IMG/VR virus record: IMGVR_UViG_3300028996_000015 | Reading direction: 5' to 3' (one strand) | From: a virus | Taxonomy: Duplodnaviria > Heunggongvirae > Uroviricota > Caudoviricetes | DNA: 5,855 bases | In this document: one piece after another, positions 653 to 5,855 of the stretch | Position numbering within the stretch: position 1 is the first letter of the stretch | How the letters are laid out: each line of letters starts with the position of its first letter | Notes under the pieces: model-generated | Seen by the model: only the letters and a program-made list of their open reading frames with translations | Told to the model about the DNA's origin: nothing | Database searches by the model: none | Program-made: the position numbers and the translations under genes

Positions 653-3600
653 ATGGGTAAAGGCAGCAGTAAGGGGCATACCCCGCGCGAAGCGAAGGAC
701 AACCTGAAATCATCCCAGATGCTGAGCGTGATAGACGCCATCAGTGAAGGGCCGGTTGAAGGTCCGGTGGACGGATTAAAAAGTGTGCTGCTGAACAGTA
801 CGCCAGTGCTGGACAGTGAGGGGAATACCAATATCTCCGGTGTCACGGTGGTTTTCCGGGCAGGTGAGCAGGAGCAGACACCGCCGGAGGGATTTGAATC
901 CTCCGGCTCCGAGACGGTGCTGGGTACGGAAGTGAAGTACGACACGCCGATTACCCGGACCATCACGTCTGCAAACATCGACCGTCTGCGCTTTACCTTC
1001 GGTGTGCAGGCACTGGTGGAAACCACCTCAAAGGGGGACCGGAATCTGTCGGAAGTTCGCCTGCTGGTTCAGATACAGCGTAATGGTGGCTGGGTGACGG
1101 AAAAAGACATCACCATTAAGGGCAAAACCACCTCGCAGTATCTGGCCTCGGTGGTGGTGGATAACCTGCCGCCGCGCCCGTTCAATATACGGATGCGCAG
1201 GATGACGCCGGACAGCACCACAGACCAGCTGCAGAACAAAACGCTCTGGTCGTCATACACCGAAATCATCGATGTGAAACAGTGCTACCCGAACACGGCA
1301 CTGGTCGGCGTGCAGGTGGATTCGGAGCAGTTCGGCAGCCAGCAGGTGAGCCGTAATTATCATCTGCGCGGGCGTATTCTGCAGGTGCCGTCGAATTATA
1401 ACCCGCAGACGCGGCAATACAGCGGTATCTGGGACGGAACGTTTAAACCGGCATACAGCAACAACATGGCCTGGTGTCTGTGGGATATGCTGACCCACCC
1501 GCGCTACGGCATGGGGAAACGTCTTGGTGCGGCAGATGTGGATAAATGGGCGCTGTATGTCATCGGCCAGAATTGCGACCAGTCGGTGCCGGACGGCTTT
1601 GGCGGCACGGAGCCGCGCATTACCTGTAATGCGTACCTGACCACACAGCGCAAGGCGTGGGATGTGCTCAGTGATTTCTGCTCGGCGATGCGCTGTATGC
1701 CGGTATGGAACGGGCAGACGCTGACGTTCGTGCAGGACCGACCGTCGGATAAGGTGTGGACCTATAACCGCAGTAATGTGGTGATGCCGGATGATGGCGC
1801 GCCGTTCCGCTACAGCTTCAGCGCCCTGAAGGACCGCCATAATGCCGTTGAGGTGAACTGGATTGACCCGGATAACGGCTGGGGNNNNNNNNNNNNNNNN
1901 NNNNNNNNNNNNNNNNNNNNNNNNNNNNNNNNNNNNNNNNNNNNNNNNNNNNNNNNNNNNNNNNGGCTGTACCAGCCGGGGGCAGGCACACCGCGCCGGG
2001 CTGTGGCTGATTAAAACGGAGCTGCTGGAAACGCAGACCGTGGACTTCAGCGTGGGTGCTGAAGGGCTTCGCCATGTACCGGGGGATGTCATTGAAATCT
2101 GCGATGATGACTATGCCGGTATCAGCACCGGTGGTCGTGTGCTGGCGGTGAACAGCCAGACCCGGACGCTGACGCTCGACCGTGAAATCACGCTGCCATC
2201 CTCCGGCACCACGCTGATAAGCCTGGTTGACGGTGAGGGTAATCCGGTCAGCGTGGAGGTCCAGTCCGTCACCGACGGCGTGAAGGTGAAAGTGAGCCGT
2301 GTTCCTGACGGCGTTGCTGAATACAGCGTGTGGGGGCTGAAGTTGCCGACGTTGCGCCAGCGCCTGTTCCGCTGCGTGAGTATCCGTGAGAACGACGACG
2401 GCACGTATGCCATCACTGCCGTGCAGCATGTACCGGAGAAAGAGGCCATCGTGGATAACGGGGCGCACTTTGACGGCGACCAGAGCGGCACGGTGAATGG
2501 TGTCACGCCGCCAGCGGTGCAGCACCTGACTGCCGAAGTCACCGCAGACAGCGGGGAATATCAGGTACTGGCCCGCTGGGACACGCCGAAGGTGGTGAAG
2601 GGCGTGAGCTTCCTGCTTCGCCTGACCGTGGCAGCGGACGACGGCAGTGAGCGGCTGGTCAGCACGGCCAGGACGACGGAAACCACATACCGCTTCAGGC
2701 AACTGGCGCTGGGGCGTTACACGCTGACGGTCCGGGCGGCAAATGCGTGGGGACAGCAGGGCGATCCGGCATCGGTATCGTTCCGGATTGCCGCACCGGC
2801 AGCGCCGTCGCGGATTGAGCTGACGCCGGGCTATTTTCAGATAACCGCCACGCCCCATCTTGCCGTTTATGATCCGACGGTACAATTTGAGTTCTGGTTC
2901 TCGGAAACGCGGATTACCGATATCAGGCAGGTTGAAACTACAGCCCGCTATCTTGGCACGGCGCTGTACTGGATAGCTGCCAGTATCAATATCAAACCGG
3001 GCCATGATTATTATTTTTACATCCGCAGTGTGAACACCGTTGGCAAATCGGCATTTGTGGAGGCTGTTGGCCAGCCGAGTGATGATGCATCCGGCTATCT
3101 GGATTTTTTCAAAGGCGAGATAGGGAAAAGCCATCTGGCTCAGGAGCTGTGGACGCAGATTGATAACGGTCAGCTTGCGCCTGACCTGGCTGAAATCAGG
3201 ACGTCCATTACGGATGTCAGCAATGAAATCACGCAGACCGTCAATAAGAAACTGGAAGACCAGAGTGCGGCAATTCAGCAGATACAGAAGGTTCAGGTTG
3301 ATACAAATAATAACCTGAACAGCATGTGGGCTGTGAAGCTGCAGCAGATGCAGGACGGACGCCTTTATATCGCGGGTATTGGTGCCGGTATTGAGAACAC
3401 CCCTGACGGCATGCAGAGTCAGGTGCTGCTGGCGGCGGACAGGATTGCGATGGTTAATCCTGCGAATGGCAACACAAAGCCGATGTTTGTTGGTCAGGGC
3501 GATCAGATATTCATGAACGAAGTGTTCCTGAAATATCTGACGGCTCCCACCATTACCAGCGGCGGTAATCCTCCGGCATTTTCCCTGACACCGGACGGGC

Positions 3601-4136
3601 GGCTGACGGCGAAAAATGCCGATATCAGCGGTAACGTGAATGCGAACTCCGGGACGCTCAACAACGTCACGATTAACGAGAACTGCCGGGTTCTGGGAAA
3701 ACTGTCCGCGAACCAGATTGAAGGCGATCTCGTTAAAACAGTGGGTAAAGCTTTCCCCCGGGACTCCCGTGCACCGGAACGGTGGCCATCAGGGACCATT
3801 ACCGTCAGGATTTATGACGATCAGCCGTTTGACCGACAGATTGTTATTCCGGCGGTGGCATTCAGCGGCGCTAAGCATGAGAGAGAGCATACTGATATTT
3901 ACTCCTCATGCCGTCTGATAGTGCGGAAAAACGGTGCTGAAATTTATAACCGTACCGCGCTGGATAATACGCTGATTTACAGTGGCGTTATTGATATGCC
4001 TGCCGGTCACGGTCACATGACGCTGGAGTTTTCGGTGTCAGCATGGCTGGTAAATAACTGGTATCCCACAGCAAGTATCAGCGATTTGCTGGTTGTGGTG
4101 ATGAAGAAAGCCACCGCAGGCATCAGTATCAGCTGA
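653..4136 (+). CDS. J: Tail tip host-specificity protein / central tail fiber J; a single gene interrupted by an 80-nt N run (1885-1964) that shifts the apparent frame
   Basis: The two track ORFs 653..2014 and 1863..4136 are the two halves of one protein. The N-terminal half ([34 protein letters not shown]...NWIDPDNGW) and the residues after the gap ([31 protein letters not shown]...) both match lambda J as I recall it, and are collinear. Start ATG at 653 with GGAG at 641-644; stop TGA at 4134-4136. Lambda J is known to carry fibronectin-III-like repeats centrally and a C-terminal receptor-binding domain. Confidence 0.95.
1885..1964. other. Run of 80 N (unresolved or masked sequence) inside the J coding region
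   Basis: Seen directly. 80 is not a multiple of 3, so the J frame changes from phase 2 (before) to phase 0 (after); conserved J protein sequence resumes immediately after the run. Confidence 0.99.
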
Positions 4137-4154
4137 ATTTTATAGCCCCAATAC

Positions 4155-4180
4155 GGGCGTCAGAAATGACGCCTTTTTTA
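4155..4180 (+). terminator. Rho-independent terminator downstream of J
   Basis: GGCGTCA (4156-4162), loop GAAA, TGACGCC (4167-4173), then TTTTTTA (4174-4180); starts 20 nt after the J stop. Confidence 0.8.
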
Positions 4181-4203
4181 TTGCAGAAAAGCGAGAGGTA
4201 ATT

Positions 4204-4803
4204 ATGCGTAAATTATGTGCTGTTATTCTGTCCGCAGTAGTCTGGCTGGTTGCCGCTGGTACGCCAGCGAGCGCAGCAGAGCATCAGTCCACACTAAGCG
4301 CCGGGTATCTTCAGACCCATACTGATATGCCAGGCAGTGATGACCTGAAGGGCATTAACGTGAAATACCGTTATGAATTTACGGACACGCTGGGGCTGGT
4401 GACGTCATTCAGTTATGCCAATGCCAAAGATGAGCAAAAAACGCATTACAGCGATACCCGCTGGCATGAAGATTCCGTGCGTAACCGCTGGTTCAGCATG
4501 ATGGCGGGGCCATCTGTACGCGTGAATGAATGGTTCAGTGCTTATGCGATGGCGGGTATGGCTTACAGCCGTGTGTCGACCTTCTCCGGGGATTATCTCC
4601 GCGTAACTGACAACAAGGGGAAAACGCACGATGTGCTGACCGGAAGTGATGACGGTCGCCACAGCAACACGTCTCTGGCGTGGGGGGCTGGCGTGCAGTT
4701 TAACCCGACCGAATCCGTGGCCATTGACCTTGCTTATGAAGGTTCCGGCAGTGGTGACTGGCGCACTGACGGTTTCATCGTGGGTGTCGGTTATAAATTC
4801 TGA
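4204..4803 (+). CDS. lom: Lom outer-membrane beta-barrel protein (Ail/Lom/PagC/OmpX family), a phage moron
   Basis: 199-aa ORF with an N-terminal signal peptide (MRKLCAVILSAVVWLVAAGTPASA, predicted cleavage before AEHQ), the conserved GINVKYRYE motif, and a C-terminus AYEGSGSGDWRTDGFIVGVGYKF that matches lambda Lom as I recall it, ending in the aromatic residue typical of OM beta-barrels. SD GAGAGG at 4193-4198, ATG at 4204. Position between J and stf is as in lambda. Confidence 0.95.
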   Translation: MRKLCAVILSAVVWLVAAGTPASAAEHQSTLSAGYLQTHTDMPGSDDLKGINVKYRYEFTDTLGLVTSFSYANAKDEQKTHYSDTRWHEDSVRNRWFSMMAGPSVRVNEWFSAYAMAGMAYSRVSTFSGDYLRVTDNKGKTHDVLTGSDDGRHSNTSLAWGAGVQFNPTESVAIDLAYEGSGSGDWRTDGFIVGVGYKF

Positions 4804-4830
4804 TTAGCCAGGTAACACAGTGTTATGACA

Positions 4831-4856
4831 GCCCGCCGGTTCAGGCGGGCTTTTTT
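4831..4856 (+). terminator. Rho-independent terminator downstream of lom
   Basis: GCCCGCC (4831-4837), loop GGTTCA, GGCGGGC (4844-4850), then TTTTTT (4851-4856); GC-rich 7-bp stem. Confidence 0.85.
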
Positions 4857-4867
4857 GTGGAGTGGAT

Positions 4868-5855
4868 ATGGCAGCAGTAAAAATCTCAGGTGTGCTGAAA
4901 GATGGTGCGGGAAAACCAATACAGAACTGCACTATTCAACTGAAGGCAAAGCGTAACAGCACCACGGTACTGGTGAACACGGTGGCTTCTGAAAATCCGG
5001 ATGAAGCCGGACGTTACAGCATGGATGTTGAGTATGGCCAGTACAGCGTCACCCTGCTGGTTGAAGGTTTTCCGCCTTCACATGCCGGGACCATTACCGT
5101 CTATGAAGGCTCCAGACCAGGTACGCTGAATGATTTTCTCGGTGCCATGACGGAAGATGATGTCATGCCGGAGGCATTGCGTCGTTTTGAGGCAATGGTG
5201 GAAGAAGTGGCACGCAACGCCGAAGCCGCCTCTCAGAGCGCAGCGGCGGCAAAGAAATCCGAAACTGCAGCGGCATCATCAAAGAACGCGGCGAAAACCT
5301 CAGAAACGAATGCAGCTAATAGTGCACAGGCGGCAGCGACCTCGCAGACTGCATCGGCAAACTCCGCGACAGCAGCCAAAAAATCAGAAACCAACGCGAA
5401 AAATAGCGAGACAGCCGCAAAGACGAGCGAAACCAACGCAAAGTCCAGCCAGACGGCAGCGAAAACCAGCGAAACGAATGCCAAAGCCAGTGAAACTGCG
5501 GCGAAAAGCAGTCAGGATGCAGCAGCCGAAAGCGAGAGCGCGGCAGCTGGTTCTGCGACTTCAGCTGCTGGATCAGCAACTGCTGCGGCTAACAGTCAGA
5601 AAGCAGCGAAGACGAGTGAAACTAACGCAAAGTCCAGCCAGACGGCAGCGAAGACCAGCGAAACGAATGCCAAAGCCAGCGAAACTGCGGCGAAAAGCAG
5701 TCAGGATGCAGCAGCCGAAAGCGAGAGTGCTGCAGCTGGTTCTGCAAGCGCGGCTGCTGCTTCTGCCACTGCATCAGCTAACAGTCAAAAAGCAGCAAAA
5801 ACCAGTGAAACCAACGCAAAGGTGAGTGAAACAGCGGCTGCGAACTCAGCGAAAG
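4868..5855 (+). CDS. stf: Side tail fiber protein Stf, N-terminal portion; 3'-truncated by the window edge
   Basis: My translation in phase 2 from ATG 4868 (GGAG at 4859-4862) is open to the window end: MAAVKISGVLKDGAGKPIQNCTIQLKAKRNSTTVLVNTVASENPDEAGRYSMDVEYGQYSVTLLVEGFPPSHAGTITVYEGSRPGTLNDFLGAMTEDD..., then an Ala/Ser/Thr/Lys-rich repeat region. The N-terminus matches lambda Stf (orf401) as I recall it. The track ORF 5157..5825 is a different frame of this same repeat and is not the gene. Confidence 0.92.
   Translation, partial: MAAVKISGVLKDGAGKPIQNCTIQLKAKRNSTTVLVNTVASENPDEAGRYSMDVEYGQYSVTLLVEGFPPSHAGTITVYEGSRPGTLNDFLGAMTEDDVMPEALRRFEAMVEEVARNAEAASQSAAAAKKSETAAASSKNAAKTSETNAANSAQAAATSQTASANSATAAKKSETNAKNSETAAKTSETNAKSSQTAAKTSETNAKASETAAKSSQDAAAESESAAAGSATSAAGSATAAANSQKAAKTSETNAKSSQTAAKTSETNAKASETAAKSSQDAAAESESAAAGSASAAAASATASANSQKAAKTSETNAKVSETAAANSAK
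5225..5855 (+). repeat. In-frame 21-nt (heptad) periodic Ala/Ser/Thr/Lys-rich region within stf
   Basis: The translation falls into consecutive 7-residue units (TAAKTSE / TNAKSSQ / TAAKTSE / TNAKASE / TAAKSSQ / DAAAESE / SAAAGSA ...) with no register break for at least 30 heptads, running to the window end. Confidence 0.85.
5420..5797 (+). repeat. Two tandem copies of a 189-bp (63-codon, 9-heptad) unit within stf
   Basis: Copy 1 (5420-5608) and copy 2 (5609-5797) each begin aag acg ag(c/t) gaa ac(c/t) aac gca aag tcc agc cag acg gca gcg. The first ~45 codons differ only at a few mostly synonymous positions; the last ~18 are more divergent. A third, degenerate copy begins at 5798. Confidence 0.9.

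What the first reader, a model, noticed from the sequence alone, without database searches (positions are those of the whole stretch)
4137..4860. lom moron cassette: an outer-membrane protein gene insulated by terminators inside the tail operon
lom encodes a signal-peptide-bearing beta-barrel of the Ail/Lom/PagC/OmpX family and sits between a terminator just after J and another just before stf. That is the classic moron layout of an independently acquired unit inside a late operon. Members of this family in enterobacteria are linked to adhesion and serum resistance, so the gene may contribute to host fitness in the lysogen. Only about 23 nt separate the upstream terminator from the lom ATG, and I could not pick out a convincing sigma-70 promoter in the 3' end of J, so how lom is transcribed in a lysogen is open. 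This Lom differs from lambda Lom over much of the mature protein while keeping the conserved C-terminal strands.
Basis: partly seen in the sequence, partly recalled or inferred. Interest (0 to 1): 0.4.

Follow-up and report, generated by a model that had tools for sequence, protein, structure and literature searches.

The report
Ordinary prophage lom gene between terminators
This is the well-known lom outer-membrane protein gene of a lambda-like E. coli prophage, flanked by two transcription terminators between the tail-tip gene J and the side-tail-fibre gene; it is ordinary, but recent data suggest that Lom masks the phage's own receptor rather than acting as a virulence factor.

Summary
Window 4204-4803 (+) encodes a 199-aa Ail/Lom-family outer-membrane beta-barrel (Pfam PF06316, E 1.5e-127). 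It lies between the J stop (4134-4136) and the stf start (4868). Each spacer holds a GC hairpin plus T-run (4155-4174 with T6; 4830-4851 with T6).

The same DNA, 100% identical and annotated as such, occurs in complete E. coli genomes, and 4711 of 5426 genomes have a match. Both terminators are present in 144 of 147 related loci, and the upstream hairpin covaries.

No credible sigma-70 promoter was found, and the literature says the same for lambda lom.

This Lom is 44% identical to lambda Lom. The last 27 residues, the terminator and the stf start are almost identical at DNA level, so a mosaic joint lies inside the 3' end of lom.

The "host-fitness moron" reading is only partly supported. Composition is not distinct, and lom is mostly co-inherited with the J receptor-binding domain. 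Lambda Lom blocks lambda-vir but not T7 (PMC12366544). PDB entry 9wso contains both Lom and the lambda receptor LamB.

Most likely Lom is a receptor-masking exclusion protein, made weakly in lysogens and strongly by antiterminated late read-through. Novelty: already known.

The parts
653..4136 (+). Tail tip / host-specificity gene J. It contains an 80-N masked stretch at 1885-1964. Its last ~150 codons form the receptor-binding domain, of a type different from both lambda and 434.
   Evidence: ORFs. Pfam Ig_J, Ig_J_second, Phage_Tail_Tip and Ig_GpJ_C. The C-terminal 200 aa are 54% identical to lambda J and 51% to h434 J.
4155..4182 (+). Intrinsic-terminator-like element after J: hairpin GGGCGTCA-GAAA-TGACGCCT, then TTTTTTATT.
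   Evidence: -13.0 kcal/mol. Present in 146 of 147 related loci. Compensatory changes G-C<->A-U, C-G<->U-A and A-U<->U-A; 93% of cells paired; 0 of 500 shuffles reach the observed value.
4193..4199 (+). Ribosome-binding site GAGAGGT, 4 nt before the lom ATG.
   Evidence: Invariant across the three Lom allele classes in alignment A2.
4204..4803 (+). lom: 199-aa precursor. Signal peptide residues 1-24 (..TPASA|AEHQ), eight predicted beta-strands, C-terminal GYKF.
   Evidence: Pfam PF06316 E 1.5e-127, full length. PDB lambda Lom, OmpX and Ail matches. AF2 model with 8 strands but low confidence; Foldseek top hits are OmpX and Ail. RefSeq annotates identical DNA as an Ail/Lom family protein.
4690..4870 (+). 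Conserved junction block (3' end of lom, terminator, stf start), nearly identical in lambda, lambda h434 and this window. It acts as a recombination joint.
   Evidence: Alignments A1 and A4. The homology break with lambda is at about 4676.
4830..4856 (+). Intrinsic-terminator-like element after lom: AGCCCGCC-GGTTCA-GGCGGGCT, then TTTTTT.
   Evidence: -17.6 kcal/mol. Present in 145 of 147 loci. A subset with a different 155-157-nt spacer carries its own terminator at the same place.
4868..5855 (+). 5' part of the side tail fibre gene stf. It runs off the window. It depends on read-through of both terminators.
   Evidence: Pfam phage_tail_N E 9.7e-68. No promoter-like site between lom and stf.

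Best explanation
The region is the lom cassette of a lambda-like E. coli prophage.

lom encodes a Sec-exported eight-stranded outer-membrane beta-barrel of the Ail/Lom/OmpX family. It sits in the late (tail) operon between the tail-tip receptor-binding gene J and the side-tail-fibre gene stf. Each flanking spacer carries an intrinsic terminator.

During lytic growth, Q-antiterminated RNA polymerase must read through both terminators, because stf lies behind them and has no promoter. Lom is therefore made with the late proteins. This step is inferred from the anatomy plus established knowledge of lambda Q antitermination.

In the repressed prophage the terminators isolate lom. Only weak transcription from an unmapped, non-consensus promoter reaches it. 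For lambda lom, expression in lysogens is reported in the literature; the promoter itself is not known.

The most likely function is homotypic exclusion by receptor masking. Lom would bind the outer-membrane receptor used by the phage's own J protein and block adsorption to lysogens and, above all, to cells late in infection. For lambda Lom this rests on published and deposited data. For this 199-aa allele it is inferred. Adhesion to host cells may be a side effect.
For: Gene identity.

Terminators, their conservation and covariation.

All genes lie on one strand and no promoter precedes stf.

Lambda lom is expressed in lysogens: PMC1151598 and the introduction of PMC7067206. [quoted passage not shown] In Phi24B, lom is expressed equally in lysogens and induced cells (PMC3342100).

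Exclusion function:
- Expressed lambda Lom gives strong defence against lambda-vir but not T7, while OmpX and OmpA give none (PMC12366544).
- PDB entry 9wso contains lambda Lom (2 chains) and maltoporin LamB, the same construct as in the LamB-J entry 8xcj.
- The same slot downstream of J holds the Cor superinfection-exclusion gene in HK022 and N15.

Lom class and J receptor-binding-domain class are mostly co-inherited. The classical host-range hybrid lambda h434 carries the 199-aa lom type along with the 434 J end.
Against: - No binding or exclusion data exist for this allele.
- The contents of 9wso are known only from chain names and sequences; I found no title or paper.
- The lambda-vir defence was obtained with plasmid expression. 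The same paper states that prophage-level Lom does not stop lambda-vir on a lysogen.
- Window-type Lom occurs with at least six J receptor-binding-domain classes, so coupling is not strict. The association could be plain physical linkage.
- One microarray study did not detect lom in lysogens (PMC2147009).
- Terminator function and read-through are inferred, not measured.
Confidence: 0.55

Rival explanations
1. Classical lysogenic-conversion moron. lom is an independently acquired host-fitness or virulence gene (adhesin or serum-resistance factor, like Ail, PagC and Rck). It is expressed from its own promoter in the lysogen and insulated from the late operon by terminators.
For: It belongs to the Ail/Lom family, whose members mediate adhesion and serum resistance. 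Lambda Lom is reported to promote adhesion to buccal cells and is listed as a moron product (PMC3594210, PMC8065619). lom is absent from the HK97 J-stf junction. It is dispensable for plaque formation (PMC10695390). It is extremely widespread in E. coli genomes, pathogens included.
Against: No promoter was found in the spacer or in the 3' end of J. GC content does not differ from the neighbours. lom is inherited mostly as one block with the J receptor-binding domain. Serum resistance in lambda is due to Bor, not Lom (PMC1151598). Newer phage-exclusion and LamB-complex data fit a phage-directed role better (PMC12366544).
Confidence: 0.25
2. The two hairpins act mainly as RNA-stability or processing elements rather than terminators. 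They would be 3' protective stem-loops for the J and lom segments of the late polycistronic mRNA, and a 5' stabiliser for a processed lom mRNA. This would set differential expression within the operon.
For: The hairpins are conserved and the upstream one covaries, which shows selection on RNA structure but not on termination as such. Late transcription must pass both (anatomy). The upstream hairpin lies only ~24 nt before the lom ATG, where a processed 5' stem-loop could stabilise the mRNA.
Against: Both hairpins are followed directly by T6 runs, the defining feature of intrinsic terminators, and the T-runs are conserved in all allele classes. The two roles are not exclusive.
Confidence: 0.15
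3. lom is transcribed in the lysogen from a weak promoter inside the 3' end of J and reaches lom by partial read-through of the first terminator. The candidate is TTGATA at 3991-3996, a 16-nt spacer, then TCACAT at 4013-4018.
For: A -35-like TTGAYA with a 16-nt spacer and a weak -10 lies 178-185 nt before the lom ATG in the window, h434, lambda (perfect TTGACA) and L142. Scores are 6.0-11.7 bits.
Against: The hexamer is encoded by the conserved J protein motif (V/I)(I/V)DMP, which by itself explains its conservation. In the window the -10 lacks the critical A at position 2, and the site ranks only 37th of 11436 positions. The transcript would have to pass a -13 kcal/mol terminator.
Confidence: 0.15

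Closest known systems
Bacteriophage lambda Lom (NP_040601; PDB 9wso chain C)
   Same: Same position (J - terminator - lom - terminator - stf), same family, same RBS, and same last 27 residues. The DNA from lom codon ~160 to the stf start is nearly identical.
   Different: Only 44% identity overall. This protein is 199 aa versus 206 aa, with shorter first extracellular loop segments. The upstream hairpin has a different sequence. The associated J receptor-binding domain is of another type, so the receptor need not be LamB.
Lom of lambda h434 / Stx-phage and E. coli prophage Lom alleles (199-aa class)
   Same: 84-98% protein identity, identical spacers and terminators. RefSeq annotates identical DNA in E. 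coli Z247, M-17 and GPEC1186.
   Different: Sub-allelic reshuffling of loop segments (QTHTDMPG versus HARTNVPG; ANAKDEQKTH versus AGDKNRQLTR) and of the partner J receptor-binding domain.
Ail (Yersinia) / OmpX (E. coli) / PagC, Rck (Salmonella)
   Same: Eight-stranded beta-barrel family. Full-length sequence matches to OmpX and Ail structures at E ~1e-18. Foldseek top hits are 1qj9 and 3qrc.
   Different: Those are chromosomal or plasmid genes with their own regulated promoters and roles in adhesion or complement resistance. Lom has longer extracellular strands and loops (199 versus ~150-170 aa). OmpX gave no phage defence where Lom did (PMC12366544).
Cor (HK022, N15, phi80) and T5 Llp: receptor-blocking superinfection-exclusion proteins
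   Same: Encoded directly downstream of the receptor-binding tail gene, in the same J-to-fibre slot, and followed by a terminator. The proposed action is the same: inactivating or masking the phage's own receptor.
   Different: There is no sequence or fold relationship. Cor and Llp are small (lipo)proteins acting on FhuA. This is a functional analogy only.
Lambda Bor
   Same: The other envelope protein gene of lambda embedded in the late region and expressed in lysogens (PMC1151598).
   Different: Bor is a lipoprotein, not a barrel. It lies near the lysis genes and is the gene that confers serum resistance.

Membership tests
Ail/Lom family (Pfam PF06316) outer-membrane beta-barrel | Full-length match to the family HMM above the curated cut-off | tested here: met
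   423.5 bits against a cut-off of 23; residues 1-199 match profile positions 1-199 of 199.
Ail/Lom family (Pfam PF06316) outer-membrane beta-barrel | N-terminal Sec signal peptide | tested here: met
   Read directly from the sequence: MRK, a hydrophobic core, then ASA|AE at residues 22-26. There is no lipobox. It aligns with the lambda Lom signal peptide. No dedicated predictor was available.
Ail/Lom family (Pfam PF06316) outer-membrane beta-barrel | Eight antiparallel transmembrane strands (OmpX/Ail fold) | tested here: met
   The AF2 model has 8 strands, but confidence is low (mean pLDDT 55.5). Foldseek best hits are OmpX 1qj9 and Ail 3qrc, probability 1.00. Sequence alignment covers the whole OmpX and Ail chains.
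Ail/Lom family (Pfam PF06316) outer-membrane beta-barrel | C-terminal aromatic beta-signal (..Y-x-F) | tested here: met
   The protein ends in GVGYKF. The terminal F is invariant in 36 homologues.
Ail/Lom family (Pfam PF06316) outer-membrane beta-barrel | Location in the outer membrane | not testable with these tools
   Reported for lambda Lom (Reeve and Shaw 1979, cited in PMC1151598).
Moron (Juhala/Hendrix sense) | Present in some and absent from other related phages at the same map position | tested here: met
   HK97 has J followed by stf with no Lom homologue. HK022 and N15 have other genes (cor) in the slot. A direct pattern search for an empty J-stf junction of the window type in IMG/VR found none.
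Moron (Juhala/Hendrix sense) | Own promoter upstream of the gene | tested here: not met
   No consensus-type site on the + strand. A PWM scan gives at most 7.2 bits in the last 600 nt of J and nothing usable in the 67-nt spacer. A non-consensus or activator-dependent promoter cannot be excluded.
Moron (Juhala/Hendrix sense) | Terminator downstream of the gene | tested here: met
   4830-4856; conserved in 145 of 147 loci.
Moron (Juhala/Hendrix sense) | Base composition different from the flanking phage genes | tested here: not met
   GC is 0.49-0.56 across lom, against 0.48-0.53 in the adjacent J 3' end and stf 5' end.
Moron (Juhala/Hendrix sense) | Expressed from the repressed prophage | not testable with these tools
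   Reported for lambda lom (PMC1151598, PMC7067206) but not seen in PMC2147009. No data for this prophage.
Intrinsic (Rho-independent) terminator | GC-rich hairpin followed immediately by a T-run, on the transcribed strand | tested here: met
   Both sites were found by the scan. Stem energies are -13.0 and -17.6 kcal/mol. Fold z-scores are -2.7 and -2.4.
Intrinsic (Rho-independent) terminator | Structure maintained by compensatory change | tested here: met
   Upstream hairpin: 3 of 8 pairs have double-sided changes; 93% of cells are paired, against 37-60% for slid registers. The downstream hairpin is conserved mostly in sequence; an alternative spacer carries a different hairpin at the same place.
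Intrinsic (Rho-independent) terminator | Stops unmodified RNA polymerase | not testable with these tools
   Needs in vitro transcription or term-seq.
Receptor-masking superinfection-exclusion protein (works like Cor or Llp) | Encoded next to the receptor-binding protein gene | tested here: met
   lom starts 67 nt after the J stop. Cor occupies the same slot in HK022 and N15.
Receptor-masking superinfection-exclusion protein (works like Cor or Llp) | Binds the receptor of the cognate phage | not testable with these tools
   For lambda Lom, PDB 9wso holds Lom plus LamB chains. For this allele the receptor is unknown.
Receptor-masking superinfection-exclusion protein (works like Cor or Llp) | Blocks infection by the cognate phage only | not testable with these tools
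   Lambda Lom: strong defence against lambda-vir, none against T7 (PMC12366544). This allele has not been tested.

The most novel reading that the evidence does not exclude
Lom alleles are receptor-specific masks that co-evolve with the J receptor-binding domain next to them. Lambda Lom binds LamB. The 199-aa class found here travels with non-lambda J tips, including the OmpC-using 434 type. It would bind a different porin, such as OmpC, and exclude only phages with the matching tip. The J-tip plus lom block would then be a single 'attack and shield' host-range module. The loop reshuffling seen among Lom alleles would reflect an arms race over receptors rather than immune evasion.
Probability: 0.25. 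Interest if true: 0.55.

Novelty: already known. Interest (0 to 1): 0.15.

Why it matters
As it stands, this is a routine annotation. The gene, its position and its flanking terminators are the textbook lambda arrangement, and the exact sequence is already annotated in RefSeq E. coli genomes.

Two small points remain open.

First, the promoter that gives lom its low expression in lysogens has never been mapped. It is not recognisable by sequence in any of the allele classes examined here.

Second, if Lom is a receptor mask, as the 2025 defence screen and the LamB-Lom PDB entry suggest, then the several Lom allele classes carried by about 87% of complete E. coli genomes form a large uncharted set of phage-exclusion specificities. 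These could affect prophage competition and the outcome of phage therapy.

Tried and rejected
1. Rfam gathering-threshold scan of the whole window: no RNA family.

2. The 24B_1 microRNA-size RNA of phage Phi24B, 'between lom and vb_24B_43' (PMC4426718). That spacer is 428 nt and unrelated. Its primer and promoter sequences are absent from the window. Rejected.

3. The svsR and Pas prophage sRNAs (PMC12803456; bioRxiv 2026.05.13.724894). They lie elsewhere (in cI) or mention lom only in a reference. Rejected.

4. Search for a clean 'empty site', meaning a window-type J end followed within 11-71 nt by the stf start, in IMG/VR: no hit. HK97 lacks lom, but its J and stf are of different types and its 207-nt spacer has no terminator. 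It is therefore not a true empty site.

5. Promoter hunting: a consensus scan, a PWM scan, a -10-only scan, and a comparison across four allele classes. Only one positionally conserved site turned up, and protein coding explains it.

6. Reading Liu et al. 2013 (ribosome profiling of lambda) and Casjens and Hendrix 2015 for a lom transcription start: not held in the library.

7. Finding the title of PDB 9wso through Foldseek. The entry is newer than that library copy, which ends 2026-04-08. J and Stf are not in it; LamB is.

8. Test for coupling between Lom class and J receptor-binding-domain class. There is an association, but it cannot be separated from physical linkage and non-independent sampling.

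9. The AF2 model came out at low confidence (pLDDT 55.5). It was used only for strand count and coarse fold matching.

Full report
**What is there**

The window is the distal tail region of a lambda-like prophage, with every gene on the + strand:
- an I-like gene at 20-592;
- J at 653-4136, interrupted by 80 masked N at 1885-1964;
- lom at 4204-4803;
- the start of stf from 4868.

The J stop codon is at 4134-4136, so the finding's start (4137) is the first intergenic base. The 67-nt J-lom spacer holds a hairpin, GGGCGTCA-GAAA-TGACGCCT, at 4155-4174. It is followed by TTTTTTATT and then the ribosome-binding site GAGAGGT 4 nt before the ATG. The 64-nt lom-stf spacer holds AGCCCGCC-GGTTCA-GGCGGGCT at 4830-4851, followed by TTTTTT. 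The stems alone fold at -13.0 and -17.6 kcal/mol. The spacers fold better than shuffles, with z-scores of -2.7 and -2.4.

**Is it more than chance**

The terminator scan finds 5 sites in the window, against 5.6 +/- 2.2 in shuffles. The count alone says nothing. The comparative data decide the question.

I collected 160 loci from IMG/VR with the window Lom and with lambda Lom as queries. They contain three Lom allele classes: 199 aa (the window type), 206 aa (lambda) and 207 aa. All three keep the same layout: J stop, about 20 nt, GC hairpin, T-run, about 15 nt, GAGAGGT, ATG. The spacer is 61-70 nt long.

A hairpin plus T-run is present upstream in 146 of 147 loci with complete flanks, downstream in 145, and on both sides in 144.

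The upstream stem changes by compensation: G-C to A-U in 6 sequences, C-G to U-A in 4, and A-U to U-A or U-G in 3. In all, 93% of cells are paired, against 37-60% when the partner column is slid, and 0 of 500 shuffles reach the observed covariation score.

A subset of loci has a different lom C-terminus and a 155-157-nt spacer. Even these carry a hairpin plus T7 just before stf, although with a different loop. Both elements are therefore selected RNA structures with the anatomy of intrinsic terminators.

**The gene**

The product matches Pfam Ail_Lom over its whole length (E 1.5e-127). It also matches the solved chains of lambda Lom (E 2.6e-49), OmpX and Ail (E ~1e-18).

It has a typical Sec signal peptide (MRK, hydrophobic core, ASA|AE) and ends in GYKF. 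The AF2 model is of low confidence (pLDDT 55.5) but shows eight strands, and its best fold matches are OmpX and Ail.

The 801 bases around lom are 100% identical to annotated prophage DNA in E. coli Z247, M-17 and GPEC1186. Of 5426 complete E. coli genomes, 4711 have a match, with a median of 2 places per genome. Matches in isolated phages reach 97.9% identity.

**Comparison with lambda**

The protein is 44% identical to lambda Lom, and the last 27 residues are identical. At DNA level, the window and lambda are nearly identical from about 4690 through the terminator into stf. They are unalignable or about 60% identical from 3673 to 4676.

The divergent block is therefore the J receptor-binding domain, the spacer and lom codons 1 to ~158, all as one piece. 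It is not lom alone. The classical hybrid lambda h434 shows the same thing: it carries a 199-aa lom (86% identical to the window's) together with the 434 J end, and returns to lambda sequence in the last ~80 nt of lom.

In 146 loci the classes pair as follows:
- lambda-type Lom occurs only with the lambda J tip (10 of 10);
- the 207-aa class occurs mostly with one J class (27 of 31);
- the window class occurs mostly with its own J class (83), but also with the 434-type (13) and five others.

Within the window class, the first loop segment tracks the J class, while the second reassorts. This fits linkage that decays with distance. It neither proves nor excludes functional coupling.

**Promoter**

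No consensus-type sigma-70 site lies on the + strand anywhere in the window. A PWM scan gives at most 7.2 bits in the last 600 nt of J and nothing usable in the spacer.

The only positionally conserved promoter-like site is TTGAYA, 16 nt, then a weak -10, located 178-185 nt before the ATG in four allele classes. The conserved J motif (V/I)(I/V)DMP encodes that hexamer.

[quoted passage not shown] The lambda GenBank records annotate no regulatory feature there.

**How it most likely works**

stf lies behind both terminators and has no promoter. The late polymerase must therefore read through them. In lambda this is the job of Q-modified polymerase (established knowledge). Lom is thus necessarily co-expressed with the tail genes.

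In the repressed prophage the terminators isolate lom. Low expression is reported for lambda (PMC1151598, PMC7067206), although one study did not detect it (PMC2147009).

**Function**

The traditional view is adhesion (cited in PMC3594210 and PMC8065619). Serum resistance in lambda belongs to Bor (PMC1151598).

Three newer observations point elsewhere:
1. A functional screen found that expressed lambda Lom gives strong defence against lambda-vir but not T7, while OmpX and OmpA give none. The authors proposed superinfection exclusion, or prevention of non-productive adsorption late in infection (PMC12366544).
2. PDB entry 9wso contains lambda Lom and maltoporin LamB, the lambda receptor, in the construct used for the LamB-J complex 8xcj. 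It contains neither J nor Stf.
3. The slot downstream of J holds the Cor exclusion gene in HK022 and N15, and nothing in HK97.

I therefore rank receptor masking first and the host-fitness moron second. For the allele in this window, both the receptor and the activity are untested.

**Moron status**

Met:
- presence/absence among lambdoid phages;
- a downstream terminator;
- expression in lysogens, for lambda only and from the literature.

Not met:
- an own promoter;
- distinct base composition.

**Verdict**

The feature is already known, and interest is low.

The most novel reading still open is that Lom alleles are receptor-specific shields matched to the adjacent J tip.

Noticed in passing
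window 1885-1964: A run of 80 N (masked sequence) inside gene J. It splits the J ORF in the ORF list.
   Followed up: no
L002 (E. coli CFT073) 3761-4462; also L004 and L025; corresponds to window ~4857-4860: An IS200C element is inserted a few bases after the T-run of the lom terminator. It lies in the 16 nt before the stf ATG and separates stf from the late operon.
   Followed up: partly
L076 2200-2445: An IS3-family transposase gene ends about 10 nt before the J-lom hairpin, and J is missing. The lom cassette, from the hairpin onward, is intact.
   Followed up: partly
window 5409-5821 (stf): A 189-nt tandem repeat, 2.2 copies at 88% identity, with 42-nt sub-repeats. The region is strongly A-rich (AT skew up to 0.68).
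   Followed up: no
L049, L050, L060-L069 (e.g. L060 3040-3260): An alternative lom 3' end (..GIGYRF) and a 155-157-nt lom-stf spacer. The spacer has a terminator of the same stem base but a different loop.
   Followed up: partly
window 4489-4496 / 4531-4538 and 4500-4508 / 4548-4556: Two pairs of short direct repeats lie inside lom: TGGTTCAG 42 nt apart and GATGGCGGG 48 nt apart. Lom variants of 185 and 183 aa, common in E. coli and Shigella genomes (P0044, P0069; P0056, P0062, P0081, P0094), lack exactly the 14 or 16 residues between them. These look like recurrent in-frame deletions that remove part of strands 4-5.
   Followed up: partly
window 3991-4018, and the equivalent positions in lambda, h434 and L142: A -35-like TTGAYA (perfect TTGACA in lambda) with a 16-nt spacer and a weak -10, 178-185 nt before the lom ATG. 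It lies within the J codons for the motif VIDMP.
   Followed up: partly
L162 (HK022) 4690-5738: Two unannotated ORFs (about 100 aa and more than 200 aa) lie between J and the cor exclusion gene, resembling N15 genes 22-23.
   Followed up: no
PDB 9wso (not in the window): A very recent entry holding lambda Lom and LamB chains together. No title or paper could be retrieved.
   Followed up: partly
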